DNA of 55,185 nt from a virus (lineage: Duplodnaviria > Caudoviricetes): the IMG/VR virus record IMGVR_UViG_3300031673_004168, positions 1 through 55,185 of that record. One strand, 5' to 3'. Of this stretch, positions 13,925 through 36,630 are shown one piece after another. A program made the position numbers and the translations under genes. Every line of letters starts with the position of its first letter. Position 1 is the first letter of the stretch. Below the pieces are notes generated by a model. The model saw only the letters and a list, made by a program, of their open reading frames with translations, made no database searches and was not told where the DNA came from.

Positions 13925-13925
13925 G

Positions 13926-22500: not shown

Positions 22501-23795
22501 GTGGAACTGGTACTGAAATTCCAACTACAGTCTCTCCGACATTCACGACACCTAATCTTGGAACACCATCGGCATTAGTCGGAACAAATATTTCTGGTAC
22601 TGGTGCGAACTTTACAGCAGGTACAGTATCCACAATTACAGGCTTAGCCCCCGACACACAGAACACTTACGCTCGAACACAATATTTAATACCTTACGCT
22701 TCATCAACGACAGCTTTTGGCGAGATAGCCATAGGCACTGACGGTCAAGTTTTGACTTCAGGCGGTGCGGGAGTTGCGCCTAGTTTTGAAGACGCGGCAG
22801 GTGGTTCAACTGCAACACGAGAAGAAGTCAACTCATTACTCAATGCTTACCGAATAGCGGTAAATGGGTCTTTGGTAAAGTTTAATCTTATGGACGGTAT
22901 CATGGACGAGTTTGAGGACGAAAGCGGCGTAGATACTGGCACATCTACAAACGAAGACTATGACAGTTCAAATGATTTATACAGTCCTGATGTAGTAGAG
23001 ACGAAATCTATCAGTCAAGAGACCAGCAATGACTATGTTCAACAAGGTGATGTTGGCGGGCAAGAACGTAGAAATGCACAAAGTTTTACGCTATCTGCGC
23101 AGAAAACCATTGATGCTATTGGCATAGAATTGGATGCAAATTCGGGTTCCCCGTCAGGTGATGTTACGATACGAATAGAAACTGACAGTTCTAACGTGCC
23201 ATCAGGCACTTTGGCGAATGTAAATGCCACAAAAGCAGTAACTGTCACAGCGAGTCAATGGAACAAGTTTTCCTTTGATACTCCTTTTTCGTTATCTTCC
23301 GGAACGTATTGGATAGTTTTCACTTGTGCAGACCAATCAAACAATGCTTATTGGACTTGGAAAACAAGCACATCAAGCTTATACGCTGGCGGTAACATGG
23401 CATATTCTACAGATGGCGGAAGCTCTTGGACTGCTTTAGGAACATACGACCAGACATTCCGAGTTTACACAGACGAACCCGGCAACATGACGCTTGTATC
23501 AAATTCTACCGAAGCTGAAGCGAATCCTGACACGGTGAGAATCGTAGTCTTTGAAGAAGACGTTGACGCTATTACTGAAAATACCGACTTGAAAGCCTAC
23601 GCCTCAAGGGACAACGGAGGAAATTGGGTACAGGCAACCTTAACTGACGAAGGCGATTACGAATCAGGACAAAGATTATTGACTGGTGAAGCAGATGTGT
23701 CAGGTCAGGCAAGTGATAAAACGGTTAAATGGAAAGTAGAAACCTTAAACGAAAAAGACTGTAAGATACATGGTATAGGATATTTATTAAAATAA
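19539..23795 (+). CDS. Large modular fibre/adhesin-like virion protein
   Basis: 1418 aa, Gly/Thr/Ser/Asp-rich; YVNISGDTMTG, six GNVGIG repeats, GQVLTSGGAGVAPSF fibre motif, C-terminal beta-sandwich (AQSFT...GTYWIV, choice-of-anchor-R-like by recall). Confidence 0.8.
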   Translation: MISEHLKEHEILGIKGNTDSRYVNISGDTMTGPLIVQGAITGTSLTDGTATLSSGNLTGMGNITGDDVDLSLGTGNITTSGLATVDDILLPNGGTVGTATYKWLFDETNGDITATGNVGIGTTSPEYILDINGGTNDNDSTIRIGNSDDTTILWIAGTRGAYGYNRSANLFTLQAGVGKSLTFNTGASTFGNNERMRITSDGNVGIGETDPETLTEWSSTVPYLTLHNTTEEDTDYGRESRIIAKGEQSGTEETTLGYLEFAHDGTGDDQKGIFTLALNDGTDGDTPTAVMTVDSAGNVGIGTTAPGANLEVGGSANEKLRLVDTNSDGNPFLSFYQSTAERARIQYLDSGDQMYFYSQKKFSFRPQNVEAMVIDDGGNVGIGDTSPSTLTEWSSTVPYLTLHNTTEEDTDYGRESRIIAKGEQSGTEETTLGYLEFAHDGTGDDEKGIFTLKLNDGTDGDTPTSVVTVDSAGNVGIGTTGPGAPLHINSTSGESIALLILESDVSGGGYNEIQSKVVGGLNFGGIRFYAESGAYDSSIRFVTQTASDSLTEQMVIQHDGNVGIGVTDPDTKLEILNGGTQAKLSYDATNYITLATQSDGDLTIDSNKTSYVLDLGDGTIETTGADWVKDTHIDWGTGANQVSAADVPVTILSGATYDDIQNFIDTTQSAGIISGGEVTVNSPEDGMVDVAAGTGMIRSADTTTSPLLFFDWDATENVELTDNVLNYIIMNYHATTPFVSVITSLEDYDKNTQIPIDIVFRKGDEVEIDGSAGMFLPNYKQNMWHRLIHRGIEQINGTALVAESGTRYLTITEGIYYYWVESVVDAIDTTGAGRFKPVYRDGGTGWTYGAEAQQFSNILYDDGDGTPGDIGVAKYATYYVYQCLEGDMYIQYGQGQNNTLTIAQNEDIPSPPNYLDKWATLRAKIIILNGATNATSISNYSSTAFTSYAAGVHSELTGLAWTSSGHTGTATRLAGFEGAGAASEYTMSGTGTEIPTTVSPTFTTPNLGTPSALVGTNISGTGANFTAGTVSTITGLAPDTQNTYARTQYLIPYASSTTAFGEIAIGTDGQVLTSGGAGVAPSFEDAAGGSTATREEVNSLLNAYRIAVNGSLVKFNLMDGIMDEFEDESGVDTGTSTNEDYDSSNDLYSPDVVETKSISQETSNDYVQQGDVGGQERRNAQSFTLSAQKTIDAIGIELDANSGSPSGDVTIRIETDSSNVPSGTLANVNATKAVTVTASQWNKFSFDTPFSLSSGTYWIVFTCADQSNNAYWTWKTSTSSLYAGGNMAYSTDGGSSWTALGTYDQTFRVYTDEPGNMTLVSNSTEAEANPDTVRIVVFEEDVDAITENTDLKAYASRDNGGNWVQATLTDEGDYESGQRLLTGEADVSGQASDKTVKWKVETLNEKDCKIHGIGYLLK
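19884..21232 (+). repeat. Six 17-bp GGCAACGTCGGCAT(A/C)GG repeats and one duplicated ~300-bp module
   Basis: Copies at 19884, 20142, 20427, 20670, 20955 and 21216; module 20142-20450 recurs at 20670-20978. Confidence 0.92.
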
Positions 23796-23806
23796 AGGAG
23801 AAACAC

Positions 23807-24094
23807 ATGGAAAAAACATTCGCATTAGTTCCAGACCAAAGCGACAAAACAGAACGAGATGATGTAGCAGTAAAAGTTACTGTCGAAAAAACGTTTGTTG
23901 AAGACACTATCAGGACGGCAACCGATATCAAAAATGAAAAAGCCCGACTTTTAACAAAACGTGATGTCATTGACGCAGAAATAGCAGTACTCGACGCTGA
24001 ACTGGTGTCGTATTACGTTGAGGCGGATAAATACGAAATTGTTCCGGTTGTGATACCGGAGGAAGAACCTGTCGAGGAAATTATTAAATCTTAA
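23807..24094 (+). CDS. Hypothetical protein (possible fibre chaperone)
   Basis: AAGGAG RBS; directly follows the fibre gene. Confidence 0.6.
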   Translation: MEKTFALVPDQSDKTERDDVAVKVTVEKTFVEDTIRTATDIKNEKARLLTKRDVIDAEIAVLDAELVSYYVEADKYEIVPVVIPEEEPVEEIIKS

Positions 24095-24114: not shown

Positions 24115-27100
24115 ATGGCTAATAGCGAAAACACAGGCAAACCAAGAATACTCTTAATCGGAGATTCTGCATCACTCCATACTGGCATGGGAATAGCCGT
24201 CAAGGAAATAGCAACACGTCTTTATCGTATGGATAAATACGAAATAAGAACTTTCGGTTGGTTTGCACATACAGCAGAACAACGTGGCGTTAAATGGAAT
24301 TTTCCATGGCGACAATATACTACTTCAGACCATACAAGATCTTATGGACATCCTCAAGGATACCCTGCTGAACCTAATTGGGAATCGTGTCCAATGGTTA
24401 AGGTAATAGACGATTATAAGCCTGATGTTGTTATCGTTATCGGCGATTATTGGATGGCGGACTTCATTTTAGACATGCCGAACAGAAGACAAACTAAGAT
24501 AATTTGGGAATTTCCAATCGATGGAAAACCTGTCCCCAAGTCATGGATAAAGACTTTCAAAAAAGCCGACATACCGATAGTAATGTCAGAGTTTGCGGAA
24601 CAAGCAATAAAAGACGTTGATGAATATTTTAAAGTTGAACGCAACCCAAGAGGATTAGATACAAGCATATTCTTTCCACAGACATTAGACAGACCAAAAG
24701 ATTTTCTAAGAAAGAATTTCATGCCTTCCGCAATAGGCAGATTTGTAGTAGGAGTTTTTAATAGGTTTCAGGACAGAAAACAAATAGGTAGGGCAATAGA
24801 AGCATTTAGCAAATTTATTAAGAAATATAAACATGACGATTGTGATTTATATATTCATTGCGACCTTAATGATTCCGCAAGTATCCAACAAGGTAAAACT
24901 CTTATAGGCGAAGATGGACTTTTAAAACGATACGGACTTGACGGAAAGATTCTGTTTAATAAAAACATTACAGTTGAACAAGGCATTTCTGCACCAGAAC
25001 TTGCGGCGACTTATAATTGTTGTGATGTTATTTTGAATACTACACAAGGCGAGGGATGGGGTCTCTCGATTTTGGAAAGTTTAGCTTGTGGCGTTCCAAA
25101 TATAGCTACAAATTACACTACACCACATGAATTTGCAAAGTCAGGTGGCATAAAACTTATAGACGTTATCACTACAATAACTGGAATGTATAACGTGGAA
25201 AGAGCCTTAGCCGATACAGACCACGCCGCTGATTTGCTCGAAGAACTTTACAGGTCGCCATCTACAAGAAAAGATATGGGAATAAAATGTGCTGAATGGG
25301 CAAAACAGTTTAATTGGGAAAATAATATACAGAACTGGGTATCGTATATTGAGAGATGTTTAAAGGGTACGGAATATAAAGCTATTTCCAAGACCAAAGA
25401 GAGGGTACTCGACCTTGAACCTAACGTAAACATTCAAGGTGCTGTATTCGAGAACACAGGGTTTAGTATAGTTACAAAAAACCTTGCCAAAGCATTAGAT
25501 GCCGTAGGCGTAAACGTAAGCCTCGAACCAAGAGTTCCACATCTTGCCAAGTTTTTTAAAGTTGAAGACCAAATAACTGAACTCATAAGCAAAGAAAAGA
25601 ATACCGTATTTGAGTTTATAAACCATATGGGGCAAGAACAACTCGAAAGACTTCCTGCAAGTAAAGCCAAATATAAAATAGCGTATTTCCCGTGGGAACT
25701 TACAAATATCAAAAACGAATGGGTAGACGGATTAAATAAATACGCAGACGCAGTATGGTGCAATTCACAGTTTACATCTGATATTTATAAGAACGCAGGT
25801 ATACAGGAAGATAAACTATTTGTGATTCCAAATGGCAAATGTTTGCCAGAAGTTGAAAGAAACCGAGACGTAGAAGATAAAACATACAAGTTTCTATGTG
25901 TAGGAAATCTCGGGGATAAACGCAAGAACGTAGAAACTCTTATCCAATCCTACCTTAGTGAGTTTAGTAGCGATGACGATGTGGAACTTATTTTGAAATC
26001 ACAGCCAGGTCATCTTGATAGCGACCCTACAGAACTCGTTGAATTTCTATCGAGAACAAAACAAAAAGCTCCTAAAATAACAGTTATTCACGAAGATTAC
26101 ACAGATAAAGCGTTGGCACAGCTTATGGCAGATTGCGATTGTTTTGTTACAGCAAGTCATGCTGAAGGATTTTGTGCGCCGATTTTGGAGGCAACTTCAA
26201 TAGGTATGCCAGTAATAGCACCTATGTATGGCGGGTATTTAGAGTTTGCACAGAATGGTAAGTTTTTTGGCGTTGCAGTAGACATATCAGAAGCAACCAA
26301 ATCGCCAGTATATTATTACAATTCCAAATGGTCGAATGTTAAGTTTAAAGAACTAATGCGAGTTATGCGTGAAGTCTTTGTAAACAAAGTTTTACCAGAT
26401 GGTGTTAATTATGTTCCTGACCATACTTGGGAAAACACAGCTACAAAGATGAAAAACGAGCTAAAAAACGTAGCCAAACGTGCTTCACAAAAAAAGGTTA
26501 AGATATATTATCATAACTTCGCTTACAACCTTTGGAATAACGACAACAAGCTAAACTTTGTAAGGTATGCACCTTCTAACATAGAGTTCGTAGACGATTT
26601 TGAAAGTGCGGATTTGCAAATAATAGACATTACAAGACTTAGCGATAAACACAACATCAAATGTAAAAATTATATAGCTCTGATGCACTGTTTTGGCGAA
26701 TGGTCTAATGAGAATGCAATGTATTATTCAGATATTTTTGAAAATGCAGTTATGGTTTATTCCCATTTAGATTTAAAGGGCATAATGACAGGTTCGGATA
26801 AATGGACAGAGAAAGAGTTTGACAAAAAGATAAACTTTGTTCGTGGACCGTGGGGAGTTGACGAAGACTTGTTTTTTAACATGGGAAACAATCCAAAAGC
26901 ATATACTATGCTAACAACAGGTGCAGTAGCTCCTACCGAAGCCATAGCAGAATGTTTGTATTCTTGTCAAGCTGTAAAAGGCAAACTTCTTCATGTCGGT
27001 CCGAATATGTTTCCAAACGCAGAAGGATATTTGAATACACGCAACCTAACTATACGAGAAATGTGTGCTTCATATTCGTTGAGTTTTTATACGAACTCTA

Positions 27101-27411
27101 TGAGAAGGATTGAAGGATTTGAAAAAACTTTTTCGGAGGGTGTACTTTCAGGGTCTCGTCCGATATGCTTTGATACTCCACTTTATAGGCATTGGTATAA
27201 AGACATTCCTTTGTATGTAAAAGAAGGAACTCCCGATGAAGTAATAAAAGAACTTATAGATATATTCAAATCTCCATATAAACCAATAACAGAAGTAGAA
27301 AAACAATTTGTAATAGACAATTTCTCTTGGATAAAGGTATCTAAGAATTTCTGGAAAAACTTCAAGAAGATTTGGAGGTCAAAAGATGACAAATCTAATG
27401 GACTGGTCTAA
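24115..27411 (+). CDS. Multidomain GT-B glycosyltransferase (two GT4-like domains plus a third GT-like domain)
   Basis: EGWGLSILESLACGVP and EGFCAPILEATSIGMP (ExF/WG...E motifs); third domain with IEGFEKTFSEGVLSG. Confidence 0.88.
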   Translation: MANSENTGKPRILLIGDSASLHTGMGIAVKEIATRLYRMDKYEIRTFGWFAHTAEQRGVKWNFPWRQYTTSDHTRSYGHPQGYPAEPNWESCPMVKVIDDYKPDVVIVIGDYWMADFILDMPNRRQTKIIWEFPIDGKPVPKSWIKTFKKADIPIVMSEFAEQAIKDVDEYFKVERNPRGLDTSIFFPQTLDRPKDFLRKNFMPSAIGRFVVGVFNRFQDRKQIGRAIEAFSKFIKKYKHDDCDLYIHCDLNDSASIQQGKTLIGEDGLLKRYGLDGKILFNKNITVEQGISAPELAATYNCCDVILNTTQGEGWGLSILESLACGVPNIATNYTTPHEFAKSGGIKLIDVITTITGMYNVERALADTDHAADLLEELYRSPSTRKDMGIKCAEWAKQFNWENNIQNWVSYIERCLKGTEYKAISKTKERVLDLEPNVNIQGAVFENTGFSIVTKNLAKALDAVGVNVSLEPRVPHLAKFFKVEDQITELISKEKNTVFEFINHMGQEQLERLPASKAKYKIAYFPWELTNIKNEWVDGLNKYADAVWCNSQFTSDIYKNAGIQEDKLFVIPNGKCLPEVERNRDVEDKTYKFLCVGNLGDKRKNVETLIQSYLSEFSSDDDVELILKSQPGHLDSDPTELVEFLSRTKQKAPKITVIHEDYTDKALAQLMADCDCFVTASHAEGFCAPILEATSIGMPVIAPMYGGYLEFAQNGKFFGVAVDISEATKSPVYYYNSKWSNVKFKELMRVMREVFVNKVLPDGVNYVPDHTWENTATKMKNELKNVAKRASQKKVKIYYHNFAYNLWNNDNKLNFVRYAPSNIEFVDDFESADLQIIDITRLSDKHNIKCKNYIALMHCFGEWSNENAMYYSDIFENAVMVYSHLDLKGIMTGSDKWTEKEFDKKINFVRGPWGVDEDLFFNMGNNPKAYTMLTTGAVAPTEAIAECLYSCQAVKGKLLHVGPNMFPNAEGYLNTRNLTIREMCASYSLSFYTNSMRRIEGFEKTFSEGVLSGSRPICFDTPLYRHWYKDIPLYVKEGTPDEVIKELIDIFKSPYKPITEVEKQFVIDNFSWIKVSKNFWKNFKKIWRSKDDKSNGLV

Positions 27412-28444
27412 AGAAAAGAAAATAGCGTTTTTATCACCATACAACACGCCAAGAGGAAGATTAAATAAAGAGATAGTAAACGGAATTACTGGAGTGCCGT
27501 TTACATTTAAAGAAGAAGGTGCGGACTTTTATTGGTATCACGATATTAAGAACTTACCACATGACGAGTTAGTAGAAATATTTAATCAATATGATATTTG
27601 GATTTATCCAGTATATCCTGAATATTTCGATATGGTTATAAATATTCGTGATGAATATAAGGGTAAAATAATTGGCGTAACTGATATTCAAACACATCAA
27701 TTAAGTTATTGGAATTTACCTGACCTATCAAAGTTTGTATCTGCCGTTAATTGTTATGACGCAATAATGGCAACTAACCAAGACGAAGTAGAGACTTTCA
27801 GAGGGTGTCTTAAAGATAAGAAGAAAATAGAATACACAGGTTGGAGTTTGTATCCTAACGAAATTCACACTAAATATTTTAGACCTAAAGAACAAAGGGA
27901 CAAGAATTTGGTAAGCGTAGGCATATCAAACCCAGGCGATTTCAATAGAGATATATTAACAAACCTTACAGTCTACAATGAACTCAAAAAACTTAAACCT
28001 GAAATAAAAGGGTTTATGTATTATGTAACACCAAACAAAGTTTCAGGGCTAAGGGAAATTGTAACAAAAATTGGGTGCAAAGATTTCGCTTTGGTTACAG
28101 AACTTCCTTACGATGTTTCAATGGACTATCTGTCAAAAGCATATTTAGCGATACATATGTATACATTTAAAGTTGTAGGAAGATTAGCTCAAGATTGTGC
28201 GGCTTTAGGTGTGCCTATGGTAGGAACAATAGCTAACCTTCCGAATAGGTTATGTTTCCCAGATACCAGCGTGTTCGATTATGACGTAAAAAGTGCCGTA
28301 AAATTAGCCTATGACCTTTTAAATGACGAAGGACTTTACGACCACGTATCAGATAAAGCAAGACAAACAGCATATTCTTTTTATGGATTAGAAGCTACAA
28401 GAGACAGAATTTTAAAACTTTTACAGCAGAACAACTTAGCATAA
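27386..28444 (+). CDS. Putative GT-B glycosyltransferase
   Basis: GRLAQDCAALGVPMVG resembles a degenerate GT4 C-terminal motif; cluster context. Confidence 0.65.
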   Translation: MTNLMDWSKEKKIAFLSPYNTPRGRLNKEIVNGITGVPFTFKEEGADFYWYHDIKNLPHDELVEIFNQYDIWIYPVYPEYFDMVINIRDEYKGKIIGVTDIQTHQLSYWNLPDLSKFVSAVNCYDAIMATNQDEVETFRGCLKDKKKIEYTGWSLYPNEIHTKYFRPKEQRDKNLVSVGISNPGDFNRDILTNLTVYNELKKLKPEIKGFMYYVTPNKVSGLREIVTKIGCKDFALVTELPYDVSMDYLSKAYLAIHMYTFKVVGRLAQDCAALGVPMVGTIANLPNRLCFPDTSVFDYDVKSAVKLAYDLLNDEGLYDHVSDKARQTAYSFYGLEATRDRILKLLQQNNLA

Positions 28445-28454
28445 AGGGGCATAC

Positions 28455-29030
28455 ATGATTAAAGACCAGTTGCTGGAAATCTTTGATAGGCACATGGCAG
28501 TTTTTTATGATTTTTACTTCTCGGAAAGTAATCTAAATTTAATAACAAAAGCATCACGTGCGATAGTAGATTGTTTTAAAAGAGATGGGGAAACCATTAT
28601 TTGTGGTAATGGTGGCAGTGCTTCCGATTCGCAACATTTTGCGGCAGAACTTGTGGGTAGGTTTGAAAAAGAAAGAAAAGCAATCAATGCCATAGCCATC
28701 ACAACAAACACTTCCATATTGACAGCTATCGGTAACGATTATAGTTTTGACGGTATATTTTCAAGACAGGTAGAAGCGATAGGAACAGACAAAGATGTTC
28801 TAATTGGCATTTCAACAAGTGGCAATTCAAAGAATGTTATAAAAGCATTTGATGTAGCTAATGCTAAAGGAATGTTCACAATTTCGCTAACTGGAAATGA
28901 CGGTGGTAGATTAAAAGAAGTTTCTGATTTAAACTTGAATGTTAATTGCGACAATACTGCTACTATACAAGAGATACATATAACTATAATTCACGCTATT
29001 TCAAAGATTGTTGAGGATTTATCATGTTAA
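28455..29030 (+). CDS. gmhA: D-sedoheptulose-7-phosphate isomerase
   Basis: CGNGGSASDSQHFAAELVGRF, TAIGNDY, FSRQVEA, ISTSGNS and IQEIH: full GmhA signature. Confidence 0.96.
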   Translation: MIKDQLLEIFDRHMAVFYDFYFSESNLNLITKASRAIVDCFKRDGETIICGNGGSASDSQHFAAELVGRFEKERKAINAIAITTNTSILTAIGNDYSFDGIFSRQVEAIGTDKDVLIGISTSGNSKNVIKAFDVANAKGMFTISLTGNDGGRLKEVSDLNLNVNCDNTATIQEIHITIIHAISKIVEDLSC

Positions 29031-30043
29031 ATAACGTGCTTTTAAGGGGCGAATTGGGAGACAACCAATCTTGTGGAATAGTAAATATAGGATTGTGTTA
29101 TGGATTCGAGAAGAATAACGTAAACGTAAGTATTGACCCGAAGTCTTTGTATGCAACTATTCCAAAATTTGCTACAGATAGAATAAGACGCAAACTTATG
29201 TTTGATACTGTAATAGAACACGGGTTACCACACCATATGCAAGGATTAGGCAAGAACAGACCGTGGAAACGTGTTGCATTAAACTTTTGGGACAGCGATT
29301 TAGTAACAAATGAAGCGGCGGATTGCTTGAACGAGTATGCGGATAAAATCATAGTGCATAGCGAATTTAATAAAAAAGGACTACTGAACGCAGGCGTTGA
29401 TAAAGAAATTGCGATTGGTGCGGCGGGAGTATTCACAGAACGATACAGAGGTATAGAAAAGAAACCAAAAGACAAGTTTAGGTTTGTATTCACAGGAGTG
29501 GCACAGGGAAGAAAGGGCGTACAGGAAGCCATATCAGCGTTTGAAGAAGTTCTTGGCGGCAAGAAAGACGTTGAACTGGTTATTAAAAGCAATTCATGGG
29601 GAAAACTATGCGATTATACTGTAAAAAGTGATAATGTCATAAGGATTTACGAAGAATTTCCACGTGGAAAGTTTATTGAGTTTATGACTAATGCGGATTG
29701 TTTTGTATGCCCATCTAAGGGTGATGGACTAAACTTCCCCGGGTTAGAAGCTATGGCTTGTGGTTTGCCTTTGGTAATGACAGATTTTGGTGGACCGACA
29801 GAATATTGCAATGAAAAAACTGGGTATCCAGTTAAATATGACCTTGTTGATTGTCATTATCTTCCAGGACATCAAGCGGAACCAGACATGGAGCATCTAA
29901 AAGAAACTCTACTTCACGTCTACAACAACCAAGAAGAAGCCAGAAACAAAGGCATGTACGGGTATAAATGGGCGCAAGAATATTGGGATTGGGAACATGA
30001 TTGTAAACGGTTAATTAACGCGTTGGAGGGTACGAATGATTGA
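29024..30043 (+). CDS. GT4-family glycosyltransferase
   Basis: GRKG...PSKGDGLNFPGLEAMACGLP motif. Confidence 0.9.
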   Translation: MLNNVLLRGELGDNQSCGIVNIGLCYGFEKNNVNVSIDPKSLYATIPKFATDRIRRKLMFDTVIEHGLPHHMQGLGKNRPWKRVALNFWDSDLVTNEAADCLNEYADKIIVHSEFNKKGLLNAGVDKEIAIGAAGVFTERYRGIEKKPKDKFRFVFTGVAQGRKGVQEAISAFEEVLGGKKDVELVIKSNSWGKLCDYTVKSDNVIRIYEEFPRGKFIEFMTNADCFVCPSKGDGLNFPGLEAMACGLPLVMTDFGGPTEYCNEKTGYPVKYDLVDCHYLPGHQAEPDMEHLKETLLHVYNNQEEARNKGMYGYKWAQEYWDWEHDCKRLINALEGTND

Positions 30044-30602
30044 TTTAAAAGAGTTTAATTATGATGCAGACGGTAAAGTGAAGCTTCATTTGGGGTGTGG
30101 AAATCAAGACTATCACGATAATGGATTTATAAATGTAGACATAAGACCGCTTTCACACGTAGATATAATTACTGATTTGAATAAAGATATTGATTTGCTT
30201 GACAATTCTGTTGATGAAATAGTTGCTTATAGCGTTTTAGAACATTTTCCTATGGGGGATTTACATGGTGACGACCCATTTGCAAATTCAATCAGAATAT
30301 TAAAAGAATGGAAACGTATACTAAAAGACAGAGGTACTATAACTTGCAAAGTTCCAAACATGTTCGCTCTTTGTAATGATTATGTTAGAGGAAAAATAGA
30401 CGTTTTGGAGTTCTTCCGCTATGTTTACGGAGCGCAGAATTATCCTGCCAATGTGCATCTTGCAGGATTTGATAAAGTAGTTTTTTCAATGATTGCTGAA
30501 TTAGTCGGGTTTAAACATATGGAATTTTTACATCACGAAAAAGACGAAGATACTTTTAACGAATTAACAGATTGGGAAATGAGAGTGAGGTTCATAAAAT
30601 AA
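30036..30602 (+). CDS. Class I SAM methyltransferase (type 11-like)
   Basis: LHLGCG...INVD...SVDEI...VLEH...EWKRILK motifs. Confidence 0.85.
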   Translation: MIDLKEFNYDADGKVKLHLGCGNQDYHDNGFINVDIRPLSHVDIITDLNKDIDLLDNSVDEIVAYSVLEHFPMGDLHGDDPFANSIRILKEWKRILKDRGTITCKVPNMFALCNDYVRGKIDVLEFFRYVYGAQNYPANVHLAGFDKVVFSMIAELVGFKHMEFLHHEKDEDTFNELTDWEMRVRFIK

Positions 30603-31102
30603 TGAGACCAGCATTAAAAGAAGCTAAAAGATTATTGAGTGGTAAGCAGAATTTGGTTGTTGCAGAGATAGGTGTATTGAGAGGCGAGAACGCAAGAGAG
30701 ATTTTAAGAGAGTGGAGCGAAGTTGAAAGATTGTATCTCATAGACAATTATTGTTGTGGTATGAATGAATTTGAAACCGCAAAGAAAATTATATATCCAT
30801 GGGTTAATAGATGCATTTGGATGCTTCAAGATTCAGTTGAGGCGATAAACGACATAGAAGATAATTTGTTGGATTGCGTATATATTGACGGCGACCATTC
30901 TTACGAAGGTGTCAAGCGAGATATATTAGCAAGCTGGGCTAAACTAAAGTCTGGCGGAGTTTTATGTGGGCATGATTATTCAACACGTTGGGACAGTCTT
31001 GCAGGTGCAGTAAAAGCCGTAGATGAGTTTGTTGCGGAAAACAAATTGGAATTATGGTCAGCGACTACTGGAAGTTCAAGCGATTGGGTGGTGGTTAAAT
31101 GA
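30602..31102 (+). CDS. Class I SAM methyltransferase (Methyltransf_24-like)
   Basis: AEIGVLRG, YIDGDHSYEGV and CGHDY; start at the TAATG overlap. Confidence 0.88.
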   Translation: MRPALKEAKRLLSGKQNLVVAEIGVLRGENAREILREWSEVERLYLIDNYCCGMNEFETAKKIIYPWVNRCIWMLQDSVEAINDIEDNLLDCVYIDGDHSYEGVKRDILASWAKLKSGGVLCGHDYSTRWDSLAGAVKAVDEFVAENKLELWSATTGSSSDWVVVK

Positions 31103-31593
31103 GGCTGGCAATAGAAGCTGTAATAAATCATTGTAAAAAAGATATAATCGGTGCTGAAGTTGGCGTTTACGAAGGCGGAAATGCAGTTGATATGTTAAAA
31201 AATGATAACATAAAAAAACTGTATTTAATTGATATAGTAGAATTTCCAAAACTAAAACAAAACATATCGCCTTTTCTTGACAAAATAAATTTGATGATAC
31301 CTATGTCTTCCGAAGATGCGTCCAAAAAAATAGCAGATAAAAGTTTAGATTTTGTTTATGTAGACGCAGACCATACTTACGAGAACTGCAAAAACGATTT
31401 AAACTTGTGGTGGGGTAAAGTTAAAGATAATGGAATTTTATGCGGTCATGATTTTTCAGTTGAAATGTTAGGAACTGTAAGGGCTATTGTAGAATTTGCA
31501 ATATCAAATAGATTATTATTAAATCATGTAAATACTTATGACCCTATACAAAAAACTTGTTCAAAAAGTGATTGGTGGATATACAAATGTTAA
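31099..31593 (+). CDS. Class I SAM methyltransferase (Methyltransf_24-like)
   Basis: AEVGVYEG, DFVYVDADHTYE and CGHDF. Confidence 0.88.
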   Translation: MRLAIEAVINHCKKDIIGAEVGVYEGGNAVDMLKNDNIKKLYLIDIVEFPKLKQNISPFLDKINLMIPMSSEDASKKIADKSLDFVYVDADHTYENCKNDLNLWWGKVKDNGILCGHDFSVEMLGTVRAIVEFAISNRLLLNHVNTYDPIQKTCSKSDWWIYKC

Positions 31594-31611
31594 ATAATTT
31601 TAAATCGAAAG

Positions 31612-32328
31612 TTGAGAATAAATAATATGGGAAGAATATTTAAGTTGCCATATCAACCTTATGTTGCAGGACCTAAACCTAACGGTCATAACGAAAGATG
31701 CGTAGAAGTTCCTTGGGCGTTATCGGTTATTCCAGACGAAGGCGGCACAATATTAGACGTAGGATATGCTTATGCAGAGGCAAGATGGTTACATCAATTG
31801 CTTGAGATGAGTAATCTTGATATTTATGGAGTAGACGTAGCCGACCCTTGCCCAAGACATAATGGTATGCTACAGAAATATGATTTAAAACAAATCAAGC
31901 ATGATATTAGATTCCCGATGGAAGCTAAGTATAAAGATATGTTTGATGTAGTATTCTGCATTTCAACAATAGAACACCTTGGGTATGATAACGATTGGTA
32001 TTTTGATAAGAAAGAAACGCCTTATGAATCAACTGCTATTGACGATAAAATAGCTTTAAGAAATATGATGGATGTATTAAAACCCGGAGGAAAACTTGCA
32101 CTTACAGTTCCTTATGGAAAATACCAAGAGCATAGGCATTTCAGACAGTATGACAGACCGAGATTCGGGGCTTTGATTAAACCGTATAAAATAGACAGAT
32201 ACGATTTGTTCTACTATGACGGAACTGGATGGAGACCCGCTACCGAAGAACAATGTGCAGATAAATATTATGGACATTATGGATTTGTTTCCTCTTCGGC
32301 GTTGGCGTGTGTGTTATTAACAAAGTAG
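31612..32328 (+). CDS. Class I SAM methyltransferase
   Basis: ERCVEVPW, ILDVG, ISTIEHLG and LKPGGKLALTVPYG. Confidence 0.82.
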   Translation: MRINNMGRIFKLPYQPYVAGPKPNGHNERCVEVPWALSVIPDEGGTILDVGYAYAEARWLHQLLEMSNLDIYGVDVADPCPRHNGMLQKYDLKQIKHDIRFPMEAKYKDMFDVVFCISTIEHLGYDNDWYFDKKETPYESTAIDDKIALRNMMDVLKPGGKLALTVPYGKYQEHRHFRQYDRPRFGALIKPYKIDRYDLFYYDGTGWRPATEEQCADKYYGHYGFVSSSALACVLLTK

Positions 32329-32335
32329 GTACTAA

Positions 32336-32959
32336 ATGGTAGACGCAACATACTTCGATAAAGATTATTTCACTAATGGTATTGAAACACACAAGTCGGG
32401 TTATGACAAAGATGCTTTCTTGATTAAAAATGACGTGTTCAAACATCAAGCTAACATGCTTAATGAAATTCTTAAATTGAAAGAAAACAACAAATCTGTT
32501 TTAGACGTTGGGTGTGCGAGAAACAACTTAGTGTATTACCTTAGAGAATTAGGCATTTTCGCTTACGGTCAGGATATATCAGAATGGACTTATGGGAATA
32601 GCCATGCAAAAGATTTTCATTTCTGTGGCAATGTTCAGGATAAGGTTCAGGGCAACAACTTTGACTGCGTAGTTTCGTTTGAAGTCTTTGAACATTTCGA
32701 CAAACCAGAACAAGCCATAAAAAACATTTATGATTCTATGGTTAAAGGTGGAATACTTTTTTGCACTATTGGCACGGACGCAAGACCTGAAGAAAAGAAT
32801 ATGGACAAATCTCACGTTATGATACGGTCAAGAGATTTCTGGCATAAACTTTTTGTTAAGAACGGATTTGTGGAACGTAAAGATATTTACGACAAATTTT
32901 TCTGGCATGATTTAGTTAAACGGTTTAAATGGGACGTATTTTCATATGAAAGAAGTTAA
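32336..32959 (+). CDS. Class I SAM methyltransferase (type 23-like)
   Basis: VLDVGCA, GQDIS and FEVFEH motifs. Confidence 0.85.
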   Translation: MVDATYFDKDYFTNGIETHKSGYDKDAFLIKNDVFKHQANMLNEILKLKENNKSVLDVGCARNNLVYYLRELGIFAYGQDISEWTYGNSHAKDFHFCGNVQDKVQGNNFDCVVSFEVFEHFDKPEQAIKNIYDSMVKGGILFCTIGTDARPEEKNMDKSHVMIRSRDFWHKLFVKNGFVERKDIYDKFFWHDLVKRFKWDVFSYERS

Positions 32960-33236
32960 ATCGGTTTTTATCCAACAGACGGATAAAGATAAAAGTATAT
33001 TTATGGATACCTTCAAGGTAATGGTTAAAGAGCATCCTAATATACTTGTTTATCATGGCGGTCCGGTAGTCGAAGAAATTAAAGATAGAAATGTTGTTGT
33101 TACAACGAATTATTATAGAGACCAAGACTTAATAAAAGATTTTGGGTGTAAATATGTAATTGTGTGTCGTGGAGATGATGTTAATTTAATTATAAAAAGA
33201 ATAGTAGAAACTGCGAGGAGTAATAATGATAAGTAA
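32946..33236 (+). CDS. Hypothetical protein
   Basis: Overlapping ORF within the operon. Confidence 0.55.
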   Translation: MKEVKSVFIQQTDKDKSIFMDTFKVMVKEHPNILVYHGGPVVEEIKDRNVVVTTNYYRDQDLIKDFGCKYVIVCRGDDVNLIIKRIVETARSNNDK

Positions 33237-33696
33237 TTACCAATGTCCCTTATGCGAAGAAAAAAATCTTAATAAAAGATTGTCTAACACTTCACTTTAC
33301 TGGATAGCTAAATGCGATATTTGTGGAAAGATTATAGCAGTTTATCAAGAGCATGTTAAACAAGTCGAAGCTTATGTTGTTGACGAGATGAAACAGGAAT
33401 GTAGGAGATTATTTGGTAGTTGTAATTATAAGATAAGTTTTGAAAACCAACACGTTGATGGGCATTTTCACTTTCATTTAGAACCTTTAAAAGAAGAAGT
33501 TTTAGAAAGCATACCAGAGGTTCAAGACAATGTTATGCCTGAAGAAGAAGTCAAAGAAAAAAGAGAATATAAGAAGAAGAAAAAAAAGAAGAAGAAGGAA
33601 AAAGTAAAAGCTATACCCGAAGTACCAGTAGAACCATTGTCAGAGCCTCAAGAAGAACCGCCAGTAGAAATTCCATTAGAAACCCAAGAACAGTAA
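33226..33696 (+). CDS. HIT-like protein with a low-complexity charged tail
   Basis: N-terminal CPLC and HFHFHL histidine triad followed by a K/E/P-rich tail. Confidence 0.55.
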   Translation: MISNYQCPLCEEKNLNKRLSNTSLYWIAKCDICGKIIAVYQEHVKQVEAYVVDEMKQECRRLFGSCNYKISFENQHVDGHFHFHLEPLKEEVLESIPEVQDNVMPEEEVKEKREYKKKKKKKKKEKVKAIPEVPVEPLSEPQEEPPVEIPLETQEQ

Positions 33697-33706
33697 GGGA
33701 CGTATT

Positions 33707-34312
33707 ATGAGAATAGTAATAATGGCAGGTGGCAAGAGTACAAGGTTGAGACCGTTAACAGATTATATGCCAAAGATAATGGTTCCCATACATGGAAAAC
33801 CTTTTCTTTTTTATCTTGTAAAGCGATACGGTAACGCAGAATTGGTATTATCCGTAAACTATCTTAAAGAAAGTATAAAAAATTGGTGTCGTCAAACTAA
33901 AAACTATCTTGAGTTTGTTGAAGAACCTGAATTTCTTGGAACTGGAGGTGGTTTGAGGATATGCGAACCATTCGTATGTGATTGTAAAAAGTTTATAGTC
34001 ATGAATGGCGATACTTGTTTTGATGAAGACATAGAAAAAATATACAGATTACATAATTCAAAAAAGCATGTAGCAACTGTAATTTACGCAAAAAATAAAC
34101 TTACTCGTGAAATTAGAAACTCTGGATTTTATGTATTCAGCCAAGAAGTTTTCAAGTATTTAAAATCACCGAAAATATTTAAAATAGAAGATAAACTAAA
34201 CGATATTCCGCATAAAATATATGAAAGCAAAAAAGAGTATGTCGATATAGGAACTTTTGAAGGACTTAAATATGCTAAACAAAACCTATTGAAGGAGTTG
34301 ATATGTGTATAA
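33707..34312 (+). CDS. hddC: Sugar-1-phosphate nucleotidyltransferase (HddC-like heptose-1-P guanylyltransferase)
   Basis: MAGGKSTRL...PK, EPEFLGTGG, NGDT and DIGT; single short domain next to hddA. Confidence 0.78.
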   Translation: MRIVIMAGGKSTRLRPLTDYMPKIMVPIHGKPFLFYLVKRYGNAELVLSVNYLKESIKNWCRQTKNYLEFVEEPEFLGTGGGLRICEPFVCDCKKFIVMNGDTCFDEDIEKIYRLHNSKKHVATVIYAKNKLTREIRNSGFYVFSQEVFKYLKSPKIFKIEDKLNDIPHKIYESKKEYVDIGTFEGLKYAKQNLLKELICV

Positions 34313-35334
34313 TTCATAGTGTTGCTCCATTAAGAATTGGTATTGGTGGTGGGTCTTCTGATTTATCGCAGTTTGTGCATAAGTATGGTGGTGAAGTTCT
34401 TAACGTAACCATAAACAAATGTGTGTATTCTACCTTAGTACCAAGAAAAGACGATAAGATAACAATACATTCAGAAGATTATGATATTAAAGATGAGTAC
34501 GATATACATAAAGAACTGCCTTATGACGGCGAGTTAAGTTTAGTTTGTGGAACTATAAACAGAGTTAAAAAAGATTTTGATATTCCGAATGTTGGATTTG
34601 ATATTTATTTGAGAAGTGATGCACCACCAGGTGCAGGATTGGGAACGTCTTCCGCAGTAGTAGTTTCTATATTAGGGCTTTTCAGGCAATGGTGTAACCT
34701 TGATATAAAACCTTACGAACTGGCACATTTAGCATGGAGTATCGAACGGGAAGATATGAAAATGGCTGGTGGCAAGCAAGATGAATACTCCGCAGTATTT
34801 GGTGGCTTCAACGTGATGAGTTTCAATAAAGACGACAGCGTTTTAATCCTTCCATTACGCATACCAAGAAATACAGAACTTGAACTAAGAAACAATCTTC
34901 TTCTTATATATTCAGGAATGACGCATAAATCAGGCGATATAATAATGTCGCAGACACCAAATAACGAATATAAATTTAATTGGATAAATCATATAAAGAA
35001 CATATCACATGCTATGGCTGAAGATATATTACGAAAAGATTTGCAGAATTTTGGAGAGCTATTAAGTCTCGAATGGGAATACAAGAAAAAGCTATCAATA
35101 AAAGTTACTAATGCCCATCTTGAAAAGTTATATAAAATAGCAATGGATAATGGTGCCGATGGTGCAAAAATCACTGGTGCCGGAGGTGGAGGCATGTTTG
35201 TCATTTATGCTAATTGGGATAAGAGATGCAAGATAATAAAAGCTATGGAAGCCAACGGTTGTAAAAATATTGATTTTAATTTTAGACAAGAAGGGTTACA
35301 GACTTGGAGTATACGAGATGAAAAAAATAACTAA
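34303..35334 (+). CDS. hddA: D-glycero-D-manno-heptose-7-phosphate kinase (GHMP family)
   Basis: APLRIGIGGGSSD, DAPPGAGLGTSS, GGKQDEY...FGGFN and GAKITGAGGGG. Confidence 0.9.
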   Translation: MCIIHSVAPLRIGIGGGSSDLSQFVHKYGGEVLNVTINKCVYSTLVPRKDDKITIHSEDYDIKDEYDIHKELPYDGELSLVCGTINRVKKDFDIPNVGFDIYLRSDAPPGAGLGTSSAVVVSILGLFRQWCNLDIKPYELAHLAWSIEREDMKMAGGKQDEYSAVFGGFNVMSFNKDDSVLILPLRIPRNTELELRNNLLLIYSGMTHKSGDIIMSQTPNNEYKFNWINHIKNISHAMAEDILRKDLQNFGELLSLEWEYKKKLSIKVTNAHLEKLYKIAMDNGADGAKITGAGGGGMFVIYANWDKRCKIIKAMEANGCKNIDFNFRQEGLQTWSIRDEKNN

Positions 35335-35474: not shown

Positions 35475-36149
35475 ATGGGGGTGAGTAACCAAAGACAATA
35501 TATAACCAAAGAACAAATTGAATCATTATATTGGGTTGGTGGATTGCCTTTAAGAGAAACAGCTAGAAAACTTGGAACTAATACGGATAGCTTGTGTAAA
35601 AGAATGAAGGAAGTTGGTTTAAAAACTAGAAATTTATCAGAGTCGCATATTGGTCATATTCCGTACAATAAGGGAATTAACTTTCAGTCTAATACTGGAA
35701 AAACCCATTTCAAAAAAAATCATATTCCATGGAATAAAGGACTAACTAAAAAAGATGACCCTAGAATAAAATCCAACCCAGGTCCACATGGGAAGATACC
35801 CTGGAATAAAGGATTAAACAAAGAAAATTGCGATATATATAAGAAACTTAGTGAGGAAAGAAGTGGCGAAAATCATTGGATGTGGAAGGGTGGAGTAACT
35901 AGTAAACGAAAGAGTATATTTTGTAGCAATGAATATCAGAAATTTAGAAAAACTATACTAAAAAAGTTTAATTATACTTGCTTGTCTTGTGGCGAAAAGA
36001 AAAAACTACATGTTCACCATATAGAACGATTTGCTGATATGCCTCAAAAAGTTATGGATGAAAATAATTGTATTGTTCTGTGTAAAAAATGTCATCAATC
36101 ATTGGGTGCAGAACATTCCACACCGCTTAATATTAAGGAGAAATTATGA
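35475..36149 (+). CDS. HNH homing endonuclease with PWNKG DNA-binding repeats
   Basis: N-terminal HTH, three P(Y/W)NKG repeats, HWMWKGG, CLSC...HVHHI...N...LCKKCH. Confidence 0.88.
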   Translation: MGVSNQRQYITKEQIESLYWVGGLPLRETARKLGTNTDSLCKRMKEVGLKTRNLSESHIGHIPYNKGINFQSNTGKTHFKKNHIPWNKGLTKKDDPRIKSNPGPHGKIPWNKGLNKENCDIYKKLSEERSGENHWMWKGGVTSKRKSIFCSNEYQKFRKTILKKFNYTCLSCGEKKKLHVHHIERFADMPQKVMDENNCIVLCKKCHQSLGAEHSTPLNIKEKL

Positions 36150-36628
36150 GCAGGTCAGAAAGATATTGTACGGCTGATGATGATGTCAGAATACTTTTGG
36201 AGAAGATTACAGACGCTGTAATATCTGATACTGTAGTTGAATACATGATAGACATAGCCTGCGATATTATAGATTCAAAACTTGTCTATAAATACACAGT
36301 ACCGTTTACGACAACACCACCTTTAGTGAAAACTATCGCAACACATCTATCGTCATACCTTGTTTTGAGACGTATTTATTCCAATACAAGAGGTGAAGGT
36401 TTCGCAGAGTGGTTAAACATGTTTAAAGATTTCGCTGATAATTTATTGAAGTCTATTTTTGATGGCGAGTGTATTCTCATAGATTCTTCAGGTAATGAAT
36501 TGTCTATTAAAAGCAATTACGGTATAAAAATATCAACTGCGAATTATGTGCCTATATTCAACGAAGGCGGAGAATTGGATTGGGAAGTAGATGATAGCAA
36601 AGTTGATGCCGCAATAAAGGGAAGATAA
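36146..36628 (+). CDS. Head-tail adaptor (Mu gp36/DUF1320-like)
   Basis: YCTADD...IIDSKL..KYTVPF...P motif and position. Confidence 0.75.
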   Translation: MSRSERYCTADDDVRILLEKITDAVISDTVVEYMIDIACDIIDSKLVYKYTVPFTTTPPLVKTIATHLSSYLVLRRIYSNTRGEGFAEWLNMFKDFADNLLKSIFDGECILIDSSGNELSIKSNYGIKISTANYVPIFNEGGELDWEVDDSKVDAAIKGR

Positions 36629-36630
36629 CT

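What the first reader, a model, noticed from the sequence alone, without database searches (positions are those of the whole stretch)
24115..35334. Phage-encoded GDP-heptose synthesis, glycosylation and methylation module inside the virion operon
Seen: three GT genes (about five GT-B domains), gmhA, five SAM methyltransferases, a HIT-like gene, hddC-like and hddA, tightly coupled after a Ser/Thr-rich fibre gene. Established: GmhA-HddA-GmhB-HddC makes GDP-D-glycero-alpha-D-manno-heptose for capsules, S-layer and flagellin glycans; some mycobacteriophages glycosylate their virions with GTs encoded among structural genes. Inference: this phage makes its own heptose donor to build an O-methylated glycan on virion proteins. 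Alternatives are DNA hypermodification or host-surface conversion, but no flippase, polymerase or base hydroxymethylase is evident. I do not know of a described phage system with this composition.
Basis: partly seen in the sequence, partly recalled or inferred. Interest (0 to 1): 0.88.

Follow-up and report, generated by a model that had tools for sequence, protein, structure and literature searches.

The report
Phage-encoded heptose glycan-building gene module
An uncultured phage family carries, between its head and tail genes, enzymes that make an activated seven-carbon sugar plus sugar-adding and methyl-adding enzymes, most likely to coat its own particles with sugars, though what receives the sugars is untested.

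Summary
Window 24115-35334 is a tightly packed, same-strand block in a metagenomic phage contig, between head genes and the head-tail adaptor and tail tube genes.

What it holds:
- a 1098-aa protein with two clear GT4 domains and a third GT-like domain
- a 352-aa possible GT and a 339-aa GT4
- GmhA, above its curated cut-off
- five class-I SAM methyltransferases
- a small protein with a predicted HIT-like fold
- an HddC-like nucleotidyltransferase and an HddA-type kinase

Outside the given coordinates:
- 6801-7823 is most like GDP-heptose 4,6-dehydratase. Its homologue lies inside the module in one relative.
- 13271-13924 is a sixth methyltransferase paralogue.
- No GmhB phosphatase was found.

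The module is a core, position-conserved feature of this phage lineage, so it is not an assembly chimera. Its inner cassette varies between relatives.

GDP-heptose synthesis is well supported. The acceptor is unresolved: virion proteins are most likely (about 0.5), with host envelope, DNA and other acceptors as rivals.

Phage heptose genes, DNA heptosylation and virion glycosylation are each already known. I rate this a new variant of a known kind, interest 0.6.

The parts
6801..7823 (+).
   Evidence: Pfam GDP_Man_Dehyd 255.7 bits. Best PDB hit is 7US5 at 249 bits, above Rmd reductase 2PK3 (214) and GMD 1DB3 (155). A 50%-identical homologue lies inside the module of L019.
13271..13924 (+). sixth methyltransferase paralogue (Methyltransf_24 type), in the head module
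   Evidence: 37% identity to MT164, E 1e-24. Absent at this position in relative L005. Its PHROG family carries the label 'DNA methyltransferase'.
19539..23795 (+). 1418-aa fibre-like protein with an internal near-identical repeat of about 90 aa
   Evidence: PHROG tail fibre families, E 1e-19. Sequence. Ser+Thr 21.4%. This slot holds unrelated genes in the relatives.
23807..24094 (+). 95-aa ORF of unknown function between the fibre gene and GT1098
   Evidence: No Pfam or PHROG hit.
24115..27411 (+). GT1098: two GT4 (GT-B) domains plus a third GT-like domain
   Evidence: Pfam Glycos_transf_1 96 bits in 2 stretches. hhalign results. Only PDB hit is chlorovirus B736L, E 1e-8. About 35 full-length homologues at 41-90% identity.
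27386..28444 (+). orf352, conserved partner of GT1098 and a possible degenerate GT-B
   Evidence: No Pfam, NCBIfam or PDB-profile hit. AF2 model is poor, pLDDT 50. Atlas lead to clusters named glycosyltransferase. Present in all 10 relatives that cover this position.
28455..29030 (+). GmhA, sedoheptulose-7-phosphate isomerase
   Evidence: TIGR00441 215.2 bits against a 209.45 cut-off. Among relatives, found only in L018.
29024..30043 (+). GT339, single-domain GT4
   Evidence: Pfam 61.9 bits. 99.7% hhalign probability to GT1098 domain 2.
30036..32959 (+). five class-I SAM methyltransferases: 30036-30602, 30572-31102, 31099-31593, 31612-32328, 32336-32959
   Evidence: Each passes a Pfam gathering score: Methyltransf_11, _24, _24, _23 and _23. 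The best phage hit of 30572-31102 is annotated O-methyltransferase.
32946..33236 (+). orf96, conserved small protein of unknown function
   Evidence: No family hit. Homologues in L004 and L011.
33226..33696 (+). orf156: zinc-ribbon-like CxxC pairs plus a HIT-like domain (residues 1-90), then a low-complexity tail
   Evidence: Conserved GHFHFH motif. AF2 pLDDT 74.6. Foldseek top hits are HIT family, best 3R6F with TMq 0.67 and E 1e-2. Pfam HIT hits in 0 of 6 members.
33707..34312 (+). HddC-like sugar-1-phosphate nucleotidyltransferase
   Evidence: Pfam NTP_transferase 68 bits. NF049965 HddC 72 bits, below its 300 cut-off. Best PDB hit is Yersinia HddC 6JQ8.
34303..35334 (+). HddA-type GHMP kinase (D-glycero-D-manno-heptose 7-phosphate 1-kinase)
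   Evidence: NF049969 282.5 bits, aligned over its full length, below its 600 cut-off. PDB hits 4N3O, 3K85 and 4USK at 197-237 bits against fucokinase at 69.
35475..36149 (+). HNH endonuclease, a mobile insertion that is not part of the pathway
   Evidence: Pfam HNH. Absent in L004. Skipped by an independent contig in run X2.
36146..36628 (+). head-tail adaptor, the 3' boundary of the module
   Evidence: Pfam Phage_Mu_Gp36. phrog_195.

Best explanation
This is a late-expressed, phage-encoded glycan factory.

Proposed pathway:
1. GmhA isomerises host sedoheptulose-7-phosphate to D-glycero-D-manno-heptose-7-phosphate.
2. The HddA-type kinase makes the alpha-1,7-bisphosphate.
3. A host phosphatase removes the 7-phosphate. 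In relative L011 a phage HAD enzyme may do this.
4. The HddC-like enzyme makes GDP-D-glycero-alpha-D-manno-heptose.
5. The distant gene 6801-7823 converts part of this to GDP-6-deoxy-4-keto-heptose.
6. The soluble GT4 enzymes (three to five GT-B domains) build an oligosaccharide.
7. Five or six SAM methyltransferases O-methylate it.

The acceptor is most likely exposed virion protein: capsid, tail or the variable fibre. This would resemble mycobacteriophage virion glycosylation and chlorovirus capsid glycosylation.

Shown here: gene identities, their order, and their conservation across relatives. Inferred: every activity, the sugar's identity, the methylation target and the acceptor.
For: Pathway:
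- GmhA is above its curated cut-off.
- The four best solved relatives of HddA are all heptose-7-phosphate kinases.
- The best solved relative of the nucleotidyltransferase is HddC.
- The best solved relative of 6801-7823 is the Campylobacter GDP-heptose 4,6-dehydratase, and its homologue lies inside the module in L019.

Position:
- 5 of 5 contigs that run past the head genes carry GT1098 next: window, L006/L011, L007/L012, L008/L014, L032.
- 6 of 6 contigs that hold the adaptor gene have HddC-HddA just upstream: window, L004, L011, L013, L014, L019.
- An independent contig from run X2 bridges HddA to the adaptor gene.
- Genes overlap or lie at most 20 nt apart. No promoter or terminator signal exceeds chance.

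Enzymes:
- No module protein has a predicted transmembrane helix.
- The best full-length phage homologues of GT339 are GT4 genes of Arthrobacter phage Kitkat and Microbacterium phage Magritte. Both lie between the tail terminator and major tail genes.
- The only solved sequence relative of GT1098 is chlorovirus GT B736L, which binds GDP-mannose best (PMC9614988, passages).
- The best phage hit of MT176 is an O-methyltransferase described as a carbohydrate 3'-O-methyltransferase homologue (bioRxiv 10.1101/2021.07.29.453957, passages).

Diversity: the inner cassette varies between relatives (GT2, GT8, LicD, FkbM, extra methyltransferases), as expected for an exposed glycan under diversifying selection.

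Precedent: GT and O-methyltransferase genes lie inside the structural operon of cluster O mycobacteriophages (PMC4351075, passages). Glycans have been found on mycobacteriophage capsid and tail tube C-termini (as cited in PMC12619734, passage).
Against: - No experiment exists, and nothing in the sequence names the acceptor.
- The capsid and tube proteins have no Ser/Thr-rich C-terminal extension, unlike the mycobacteriophage case as cited.
- The fibre upstream is not conserved among relatives. It therefore cannot be the conserved acceptor.
- No GmhB-type phosphatase was found in the window.
- No 4-reductase or epimerase was seen to finish a 6-deoxyheptose.
- HddA and HddC both score below their NCBIfam equivalog cut-offs.
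- GmhA is missing from most relatives.
- GT4-like GT-B enzymes can also act on DNA.
- Published readings of comparable phage clusters favour host-surface change.
Confidence: 0.5

Rival explanations
1. Host-envelope conversion. The soluble enzymes act on host lipid-linked or core intermediates at the inner face of the membrane. The host's own export machinery then displays an altered LPS, capsule or teichoic-acid-like glycan, for example to block adsorption by other phages or trapping of progeny on debris.
For: - Heptose, GT4, GT2, GT8 and LicD are typical of LPS, capsule and teichoic acid synthesis.
- This is the published reading for cyanophage and pelagimyophage sugar clusters (PMC7824862 and PMC7029224, passages).
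- Cr30 and SynMITS9220M01 carry heptose genes with GTs away from the structural genes.
- Relatives L012 and L014 hold two small membrane proteins next to HddC.
Against: - The module has no flippase, polymerase, ligase, initiating phosphotransferase or any transmembrane protein.
- It sits inside the late morphogenesis operon as a core block, not as a moron beside an integrase or tail spike.
- No integrase turned up among the window ORFs scanned.
- A surface change made late in a lytic cycle would have little time to act. This last point is inference.
Confidence: 0.2
2. DNA hypermodification. The GTs attach heptose-containing glycans to a hydroxylated or hydroxymethylated pyrimidine in phage DNA before packaging, protecting it from nucleases.
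For: - Mono- and di-heptose on 5hmC were made by a phage cluster, and GT-B DNA glycosyltransferases resemble BshA, MshA and PglH. Such clusters were also found in neighbourhoods holding structural genes (bioRxiv 10.1101/2023.12.21.572611, abstract and passages).
- GT1098's NCBIfam hits include MshA, BshA and PglJ models, all far below their cut-offs.
- The dehydratase gene overlaps an N6/N4 DNA methylase gene.
- PHROG and RefSeq labels for Methyltransf_24 relatives read 'DNA methyltransferase'.
Against: - No thymidylate-synthase-like hydroxymethylase was found in the window or in four relatives' records, and the control for that family worked.
- No Tet/JBP match was found either, but its control found nothing anywhere, so that test is uninformative.
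- All these records are fragments (11-49% complete).
- The reported heptose route uses an APH-like kinase and a cytidylyltransferase, not HddA and HddC.
- Three to five GT domains, six methyltransferases and the relatives' GT2, GT8, LicD and FkbM genes far exceed the mono- to trisaccharides reported on DNA.
- I know of no O-methylated DNA glycan. This is recall, not a search result.
Confidence: 0.15
3. Another cytoplasmic product. The module makes a free or lipid-bound methylated oligosaccharide or a glycosylated small molecule that acts inside the infected cell or after lysis, for example as a signal, decoy or inhibitor.
For: - All enzymes are soluble.
- Many methyltransferases together with a HIT-like nucleotide-handling protein recall natural-product sugar tailoring.
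- A commentary on viral heptose enzymes leaves the role of the metabolites open (PMC11461863, passages).
Against: - There are no scaffold-forming genes for an aglycone.
- The conserved placement among virion genes is not explained.
- No precedent was found in my literature searches.
Confidence: 0.1

Closest known systems
GDP-D-glycero-alpha-D-manno-heptose and 6-deoxyheptose pathway of bacteria (GmhA, HddA, GmhB, HddC, then DmhA/DdahA), as in Campylobacter capsule, Yersinia O-antigen and Aneurinibacillus S-layer glycan (organism examples recalled)
   Same: GmhA is above its cut-off. The nearest solved relatives of the kinase, the nucleotidyltransferase and the SDR are HddA, HddC and the GDP-heptose 4,6-dehydratase.
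   Different: The genes are encoded by a phage. No GmhB was found, and no reductase or epimerase follows the dehydratase. HddA and HddC score below their equivalog cut-offs. The dehydratase gene lies 17 kb away from the module in this genome.
Mycobacteriophage virion glycosylation (Che8, Corndog, Myrna; Freeman et al. 2023, not held, recalled and as cited). Cluster O gene layout from PMC4351075.
   Same: GT and O-methyltransferase genes lie inside the virion structural operon, and the enzymes are soluble. GT339 has GT4 homologues at the matching operon position in other actinophages.
   Different: This module is far larger and carries its own sugar-nucleotide pathway. The capsid and tube proteins have no Ser/Thr-rich C-termini. 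The host is unknown and the GC content is about 37%. No glycan has been demonstrated.
Chlorovirus autonomous capsid glycosylation (PBCV-1 A064R, A111/114R, A061L, GMD; NY-2A B736L)
   Same: Both have multi-domain soluble GTs, separate sugar O-methyltransferases and a virus-encoded GDP-sugar 4,6-dehydratase (PMC9614988, passages). B736L is the only solved sequence relative of GT1098.
   Different: Chloroviruses infect eukaryotic algae. Their glycans are N-linked and contain no heptose. Apart from the B736L-like domain, the resemblance is one of logic, not homology.
Phage DNA sugar hypermodification clusters (Pyle et al., bioRxiv 10.1101/2023.12.21.572611)
   Same: Phage-encoded GT-B enzymes act together with sugar-activating enzymes, and heptose is among the sugars used.
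   Different: That heptose route uses a HAD/APH-like enzyme plus a cytidylyltransferase, and it depends on a C5 methyltransferase with a TET-type oxidase or on a thymidylate-synthase homologue. Neither was found here. That system has no methyltransferase array.
Heptose and LPS-like gene clusters of Caulobacter phage Cr30, Synechococcus phage SynMITS9220M01, other cyanophages and pelagimyophages
   Same: Annotated phosphoheptose isomerase and heptose 7-phosphate kinase genes lie next to GTs in phage genomes.
   Different: Those clusters lie in large myovirus genomes away from the head-tail operon. Sequence identity is low: HddA 30-32%, with Cr30 aligned over only 53% of the query. They are interpreted as host-surface modification.

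Membership tests
GDP-D-glycero-alpha-D-manno-heptose pathway | GmhA sedoheptulose-7-phosphate isomerase | tested here: met
   TIGR00441 215.2 bits against a 209.45 cut-off.
GDP-D-glycero-alpha-D-manno-heptose pathway | HddA GHMP kinase | tested here: inconclusive
   NF049969 is the best model and aligns over its full length, but scores 282.5 against a 600 cut-off. The four best PDB hits are heptose-7-phosphate kinases at 197-237 bits.
GDP-D-glycero-alpha-D-manno-heptose pathway | GmhB 1,7-bisphosphate 7-phosphatase | tested here: not met
   No HAD-family hit among the window ORFs scanned. Relative L011 has a HAD_2 protein in its module. A host enzyme may supply this step, which is inference.
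GDP-D-glycero-alpha-D-manno-heptose pathway | HddC guanylyltransferase | tested here: inconclusive
   NTP_transferase domain present. NF049965 scores 72 against a 300 cut-off. Best PDB hit is Yersinia HddC at 61.7 bits, with the GGxxTRL motif. Nucleotide specificity is unknown.
GDP-6-deoxyheptose branch | GDP-heptose 4,6-dehydratase followed by a reductase or epimerase | tested here: inconclusive
   A dehydratase-like SDR lies at 6801-7823, best hit 7US5. No second SDR or cupin was seen in the window.
Actinophage-type virion glycosylation | GT (and methyltransferase) genes inside the virion structural operon | tested here: met
   The module lies between the head genes and the adaptor and tube genes in every relative that covers the region.
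Actinophage-type virion glycosylation | Glycans attached at C-termini of capsid and tail tube subunits | tested here: not met
   No Ser/Thr-rich C-terminal extension: the last 40 residues are 10% and 15% Ser+Thr. The glycans themselves cannot be tested with these tools.
Phage DNA sugar hypermodification | Enzyme that makes 5hmC, 5hmU or 5-hydroxycytosine (thymidylate-synthase homologue, or C5 methyltransferase plus TET-type oxidase) | tested here: inconclusive
   PF00303 found in 0 of 5 records, with a working control. PF12851 found in 0 of 5, but its control was silent. The records are 11-49% complete.
Lysogenic O-antigen conversion (Gtr/Oac type) | Membrane flippase, bactoprenol GT or polytopic GT, encoded next to an integrase | tested here: not met
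   No predicted transmembrane helix in any module protein. No integrase among the ORFs scanned.
HIT superfamily (orf156) | HIT fold with an HxHxH nucleotide-binding motif | tested here: inconclusive
   GHFHFH is conserved. The top Foldseek hits are nearly all HIT proteins but at E about 1e-2. Pfam HIT found in 0 of 6 members.

The most novel reading that the evidence does not exclude
A lineage of uncultured soil and groundwater tailed phages synthesises its own GDP-heptose (and a 6-deoxy derivative) and uses it to build a variable, multiply O-methylated glycan coat on its virions. This would be the first virion heptosylation. It would also be the first self-sufficient virion glycosylation pathway in a phage outside the actinophages, and a bacterial-virus counterpart of chlorovirus capsid glycosylation.
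Probability: 0.45. Interest if true: 0.8.

Novelty: new variant of a known kind. Interest (0 to 1): 0.6.

Why it matters
Virion glycosylation in phages has so far been shown only for a few mycobacteriophages, where it alters antibody recognition (recalled; cited). If a second, unrelated phage lineage makes both the donor sugar and a methylated glycan for its particles, two things follow:
- glycan coats would look like a broader phage strategy, for shielding, stability or adhesion
- the variable cassette would be a natural library of GTs and sugar methyltransferases

If the acceptor turns out to be DNA or the host envelope, the module would still add the alpha-GDP-heptose route to the known phage repertoire. 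The finding also gives a concrete target. All genes are soluble and compact, so the pathway can be rebuilt in E. coli.

Tried and rejected
Searches and tests that led nowhere:
- Nucleotide search of the block against 50,697 phage records: no match.
- Scan of bacterial and archaeal genomes for GT1098 relatives: none. So no prophage copy and no host clue.
- Attempts to extend the genome into the missing half through relatives of end genes: no relative, only distant NinG hits at 32%, or only the known contig again.
- orf352: a profile search against PDB gave nothing meaningful. Its AF2 model was too poor to search (pLDDT 50.4).
- Pfam at E up to 10 for the orf156 family: no HIT model hit.
- Promoter and terminator scans: counts below shuffled expectation, none at the module borders.
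- tRNA scan: none.
- Sequencing runs: no RNA holder listed.
- Parts of the stretch without contig cover in X2-X5 are not evidence of anything.

The 60-79 kb contigs that carry GT1098 homologues therefore could not be read.

Literature limits:
- Freeman et al. 2023 is not held.
- Tang et al. 2024 was seen only through a commentary.
- Supplements are closed. The contig lists of Pyle et al. might show whether this lineage was among their clusters near structural genes.
- None found one.

Readings rejected:
- Assembly chimera or host fragment. The same order recurs in independent contigs, and GC content matches the flanks.
- The fibre as the conserved acceptor. That slot is not conserved.

Full report
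WHAT IS THERE

The window is a linear viral metagenome contig of 55,185 bases with an estimated completeness of 49%. On the + strand it encodes, in order:
- large terminase (10010-11389)
- portal (11401-12822)
- protease/scaffold (13854-15302)
- major head protein (15811-16758)
- several small head-completion ORFs
- a 1418-aa fibre-like protein (19539-23795)
- the block in question (24115-35334)
- an HNH endonuclease
- a head-tail adaptor (36146-36628)
- tail tube (37214-38188)
- tape measure and distal tail proteins

Inside the block, neighbouring genes overlap or lie at most 20 nt apart. Promoter-like and terminator-like sites are no more frequent than in shuffled sequence, and none marks the borders. 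GC content is 0.33-0.38, like the flanks.

GENE IDENTITIES

Glycosyltransferases:
- GT1098 has two clear GT4 domains. These domains and GT339 are mutually related by profile comparison at 95.7-99.7% probability.
- GT1098's last 308 residues reach only 17.9% probability. They do keep an invariant Glu-x7-Glu spacing (the meaning of the motif is recalled), and their nearest language-model clusters are named glycosyltransferase.
- orf352 has no HMM or PDB-profile hit and a poor AF2 model. It has only a similar language-model lead.
- So three GT-B domains are verified and two are leads.

Other enzymes:
- GmhA passes its equivalog cut-off, 215.2 against 209.45.
- All five methyltransferases pass a Pfam gathering score.
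- The kinase is HddA-like. NF049969 is its best model and aligns end to end, although it scores 282.5 against a 600 cut-off. Its four best solved relatives are heptose-7-phosphate kinases at 197-237 bits, with fucokinase next at 69.
- The nucleotidyltransferase is short but complete. Its best solved relative is Yersinia HddC.
- orf156 has no HIT HMM hit in any of 6 family members. It does have a conserved GHFHFH motif. A moderately confident model (pLDDT 74.6) has best Foldseek matches that are nearly all HIT proteins, at weak E-values of about 1e-2 and TM 0.5-0.69.

- 6801-7823 is an SDR whose best solved relative is the GDP-D-glycero-D-manno-heptose 4,6-dehydratase 7US5 (249 bits). That is ahead of GDP-4-keto-rhamnose reductases (214, 180) and GDP-mannose dehydratases (155 or less).
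- In relative L019 a 50%-identical homologue of this SDR lies inside the module, between two methyltransferase genes. This ties the gene to the pathway.
- 13271-13924, in the head module, is a sixth methyltransferase paralogue, 37% identical to MT164.
- No GmhB-type phosphatase is present in the window. Relative L011 has a HAD_2 protein in its module.

RELATIVES

Searches with the capsid protein, HddA and a GT1098 alignment brought in viral and metagenome contigs. More DNA of three of them was taken out.
- All 5 contigs that run past the head genes carry GT1098 next.
- All 6 contigs that hold the adaptor gene have HddC-HddA directly upstream.
- Core genes: GT1098, orf352, GT339, Methyltransf_11-type and Methyltransf_24-type methyltransferases, a small orf156-like protein, HddC and HddA.
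- GmhA occurs only in the window and its closest relative L018.
- The interior varies between relatives: GT2 genes, GT8, LicD, FkbM-type and further methyltransferases, and a nucleotidyltransferase.
- The slot before GT1098 holds unrelated fibre-like genes of varying size.
- GT1098 has about 35 full-length homologues at 41-90% identity, on contigs up to 79 kb.
- In an independent run, a 4.3-kb contig bridges 31765-35431 to 36218-36779 and skips the HNH gene. The 3' junction is therefore real, and the HNH gene is a mobile insertion. L004 also lacks it.
- The block is not a chimeric host fragment.

HOW IT MOST LIKELY WORKS

The donor pathway rests on four independent gene identities. I hold it at about 0.8. 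Sedoheptulose-7-phosphate would be isomerised, phosphorylated at C1 and dephosphorylated at C7, probably by a host enzyme. It would then be activated to a GDP-heptose and in part dehydrated at C4/C6. Nucleotide specificity and the fate of the 4-keto sugar are not shown.

The GT domains would then assemble an oligosaccharide, and the methyltransferases would decorate it. The closest annotated viral relative of MT176 is an O-methyltransferase. That enzyme is described as a homologue of carbohydrate 3'-O-methyltransferases.

THE ACCEPTOR

No module protein has a predicted membrane helix, so the acceptor is met in the cytoplasm.

Evidence for virion proteins:
- The module is a core block in the late morphogenesis operon.
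- The best full-length phage homologues of GT339 are single GT4 genes placed between the tail terminator and major tail genes in Arthrobacter and Microbacterium phages.
- Cluster O mycobacteriophages carry O-methyltransferase and GT genes between portal and protease.
- Glycans on mycobacteriophage capsid and tube have been reported (cited; the primary paper is not held).
- The one solved sequence relative of GT1098 is a chlorovirus GT that binds GDP-mannose. Chloroviruses combine multi-domain soluble GTs, sugar methyltransferases and a GDP-sugar dehydratase to glycosylate their capsid.

Evidence against virion proteins:
- The capsid and tube lack Ser/Thr-rich tails.
- The fibre is only modestly Ser/Thr-rich (21.4%) and is not conserved.

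Rivals:
- DNA hypermodification has a direct heptose precedent, and it uses GT-B enzymes that resemble the same bacterial GT4 families. However, no thymidylate-synthase homologue was found in the five incomplete records. The Tet/JBP test had a silent control. The enzyme complement here is also far richer than the clusters described in the passages I read.
- Host-envelope conversion is the usual published reading of phage sugar clusters. It fits the LPS-like enzyme families, but it does not fit the late-operon position or the lack of any membrane component.
- A free or lipid-bound product cannot be excluded.

My odds are virion 0.5, host envelope 0.2, DNA 0.15, other 0.1.

COMPARISON WITH WHAT IS KNOWN

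The following are already known:
- Phage heptose genes beside GTs are annotated in Caulobacter phage Cr30 and Synechococcus phage SynMITS9220M01, and appear in human faecal phage contigs.
- Viral heptose biosynthetic enzymes of the beta (HldE-type) route have been reported, notably without a phosphatase (commentary).
- Heptose on phage DNA has been reported.
- Virion glycosylation is established in mycobacteriophages.

My searches did not find the combination seen here:
- the alpha, GDP-linked route with a heptose 4,6-dehydratase
- a three-domain GT4
- five to six methyltransferases and a HIT-like protein
- all as a conserved block between head and neck genes of one phage lineage

I therefore rate it a new variant of a known kind, not a new category.

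VERDICT

Interest is 0.6. It would rise to about 0.8 if virion heptosylation were shown.

Noticed in passing
homologues of window 24115-27411: P0006, P0007, P0017, P0019, P0036; L018 993-5369; L024 1305-5615: Several GT1098 homologues are 1400-1900 aa long and carry intein and homing-endonuclease Pfam domains (Hint, LAGLIDADG_3, Intein_splicing). An intein inside a phage glycosyltransferase is unusual and suggests a strongly conserved site.
   Followed up: no
window 35475-36149: The HNH endonuclease between HddA and the adaptor gene is a mobile insertion. It is absent in relative L004, and an independent contig in run X2 skips it (786 nt replaced by 112 other letters).
   Followed up: partly
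window 19900-21000 (fibre residues about 215-305 and 390-480): The fibre has a near-identical internal protein repeat of about 90 aa. Contigs of four other metagenomes pile up here at far higher depth, with many joints. The repeat unit therefore seems shared by many other phage fibres in those samples.
   Followed up: no
window 4278-4634: A 118-aa protein has an RF-1 (peptidyl-tRNA hydrolase, ArfB-like) domain, Pfam 81.8 bits. It may be a phage ribosome-rescue or translation-release factor.
   Followed up: no
window 49525-49911: S-adenosylmethionine decarboxylase, above the TIGR03330 cut-off (85 against 75.65). This is notable in a genome with six SAM methyltransferase paralogues and two DNA methylases.
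   Followed up: no
window 54064-55044 (- strand): A radical SAM protein with weak, full-length similarity to RlmN/Cfr rRNA methyltransferases (66 bits, far below cut-off).
   Followed up: no
window 1211-2137 and 7805-8506: Two N6/N4 DNA methyltransferases. The second overlaps the end of the GDP-heptose dehydratase-like gene by 19 nt.
   Followed up: no
L012 17104-17859; L014 5262-6060 (- strand): Relatives carry two small predicted membrane proteins (about 150 aa with 3-4 helices, and about 100 aa with a C-terminal helix) just upstream of HddC. The 150-aa protein has no Pfam family; the smaller one was not scanned. They could be holin-like or linked to the glycan.
   Followed up: no
L011 10352-10987; L024 12015-12623; L021 13648-14403; L019 8698-9399: The relatives' cassettes add a HAD_2 phosphatase, a LicD-family transferase, a GT8 and an FkbM-type methyltransferase. 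Glycan chemistry therefore seems to differ between sister phages.
   Followed up: partly
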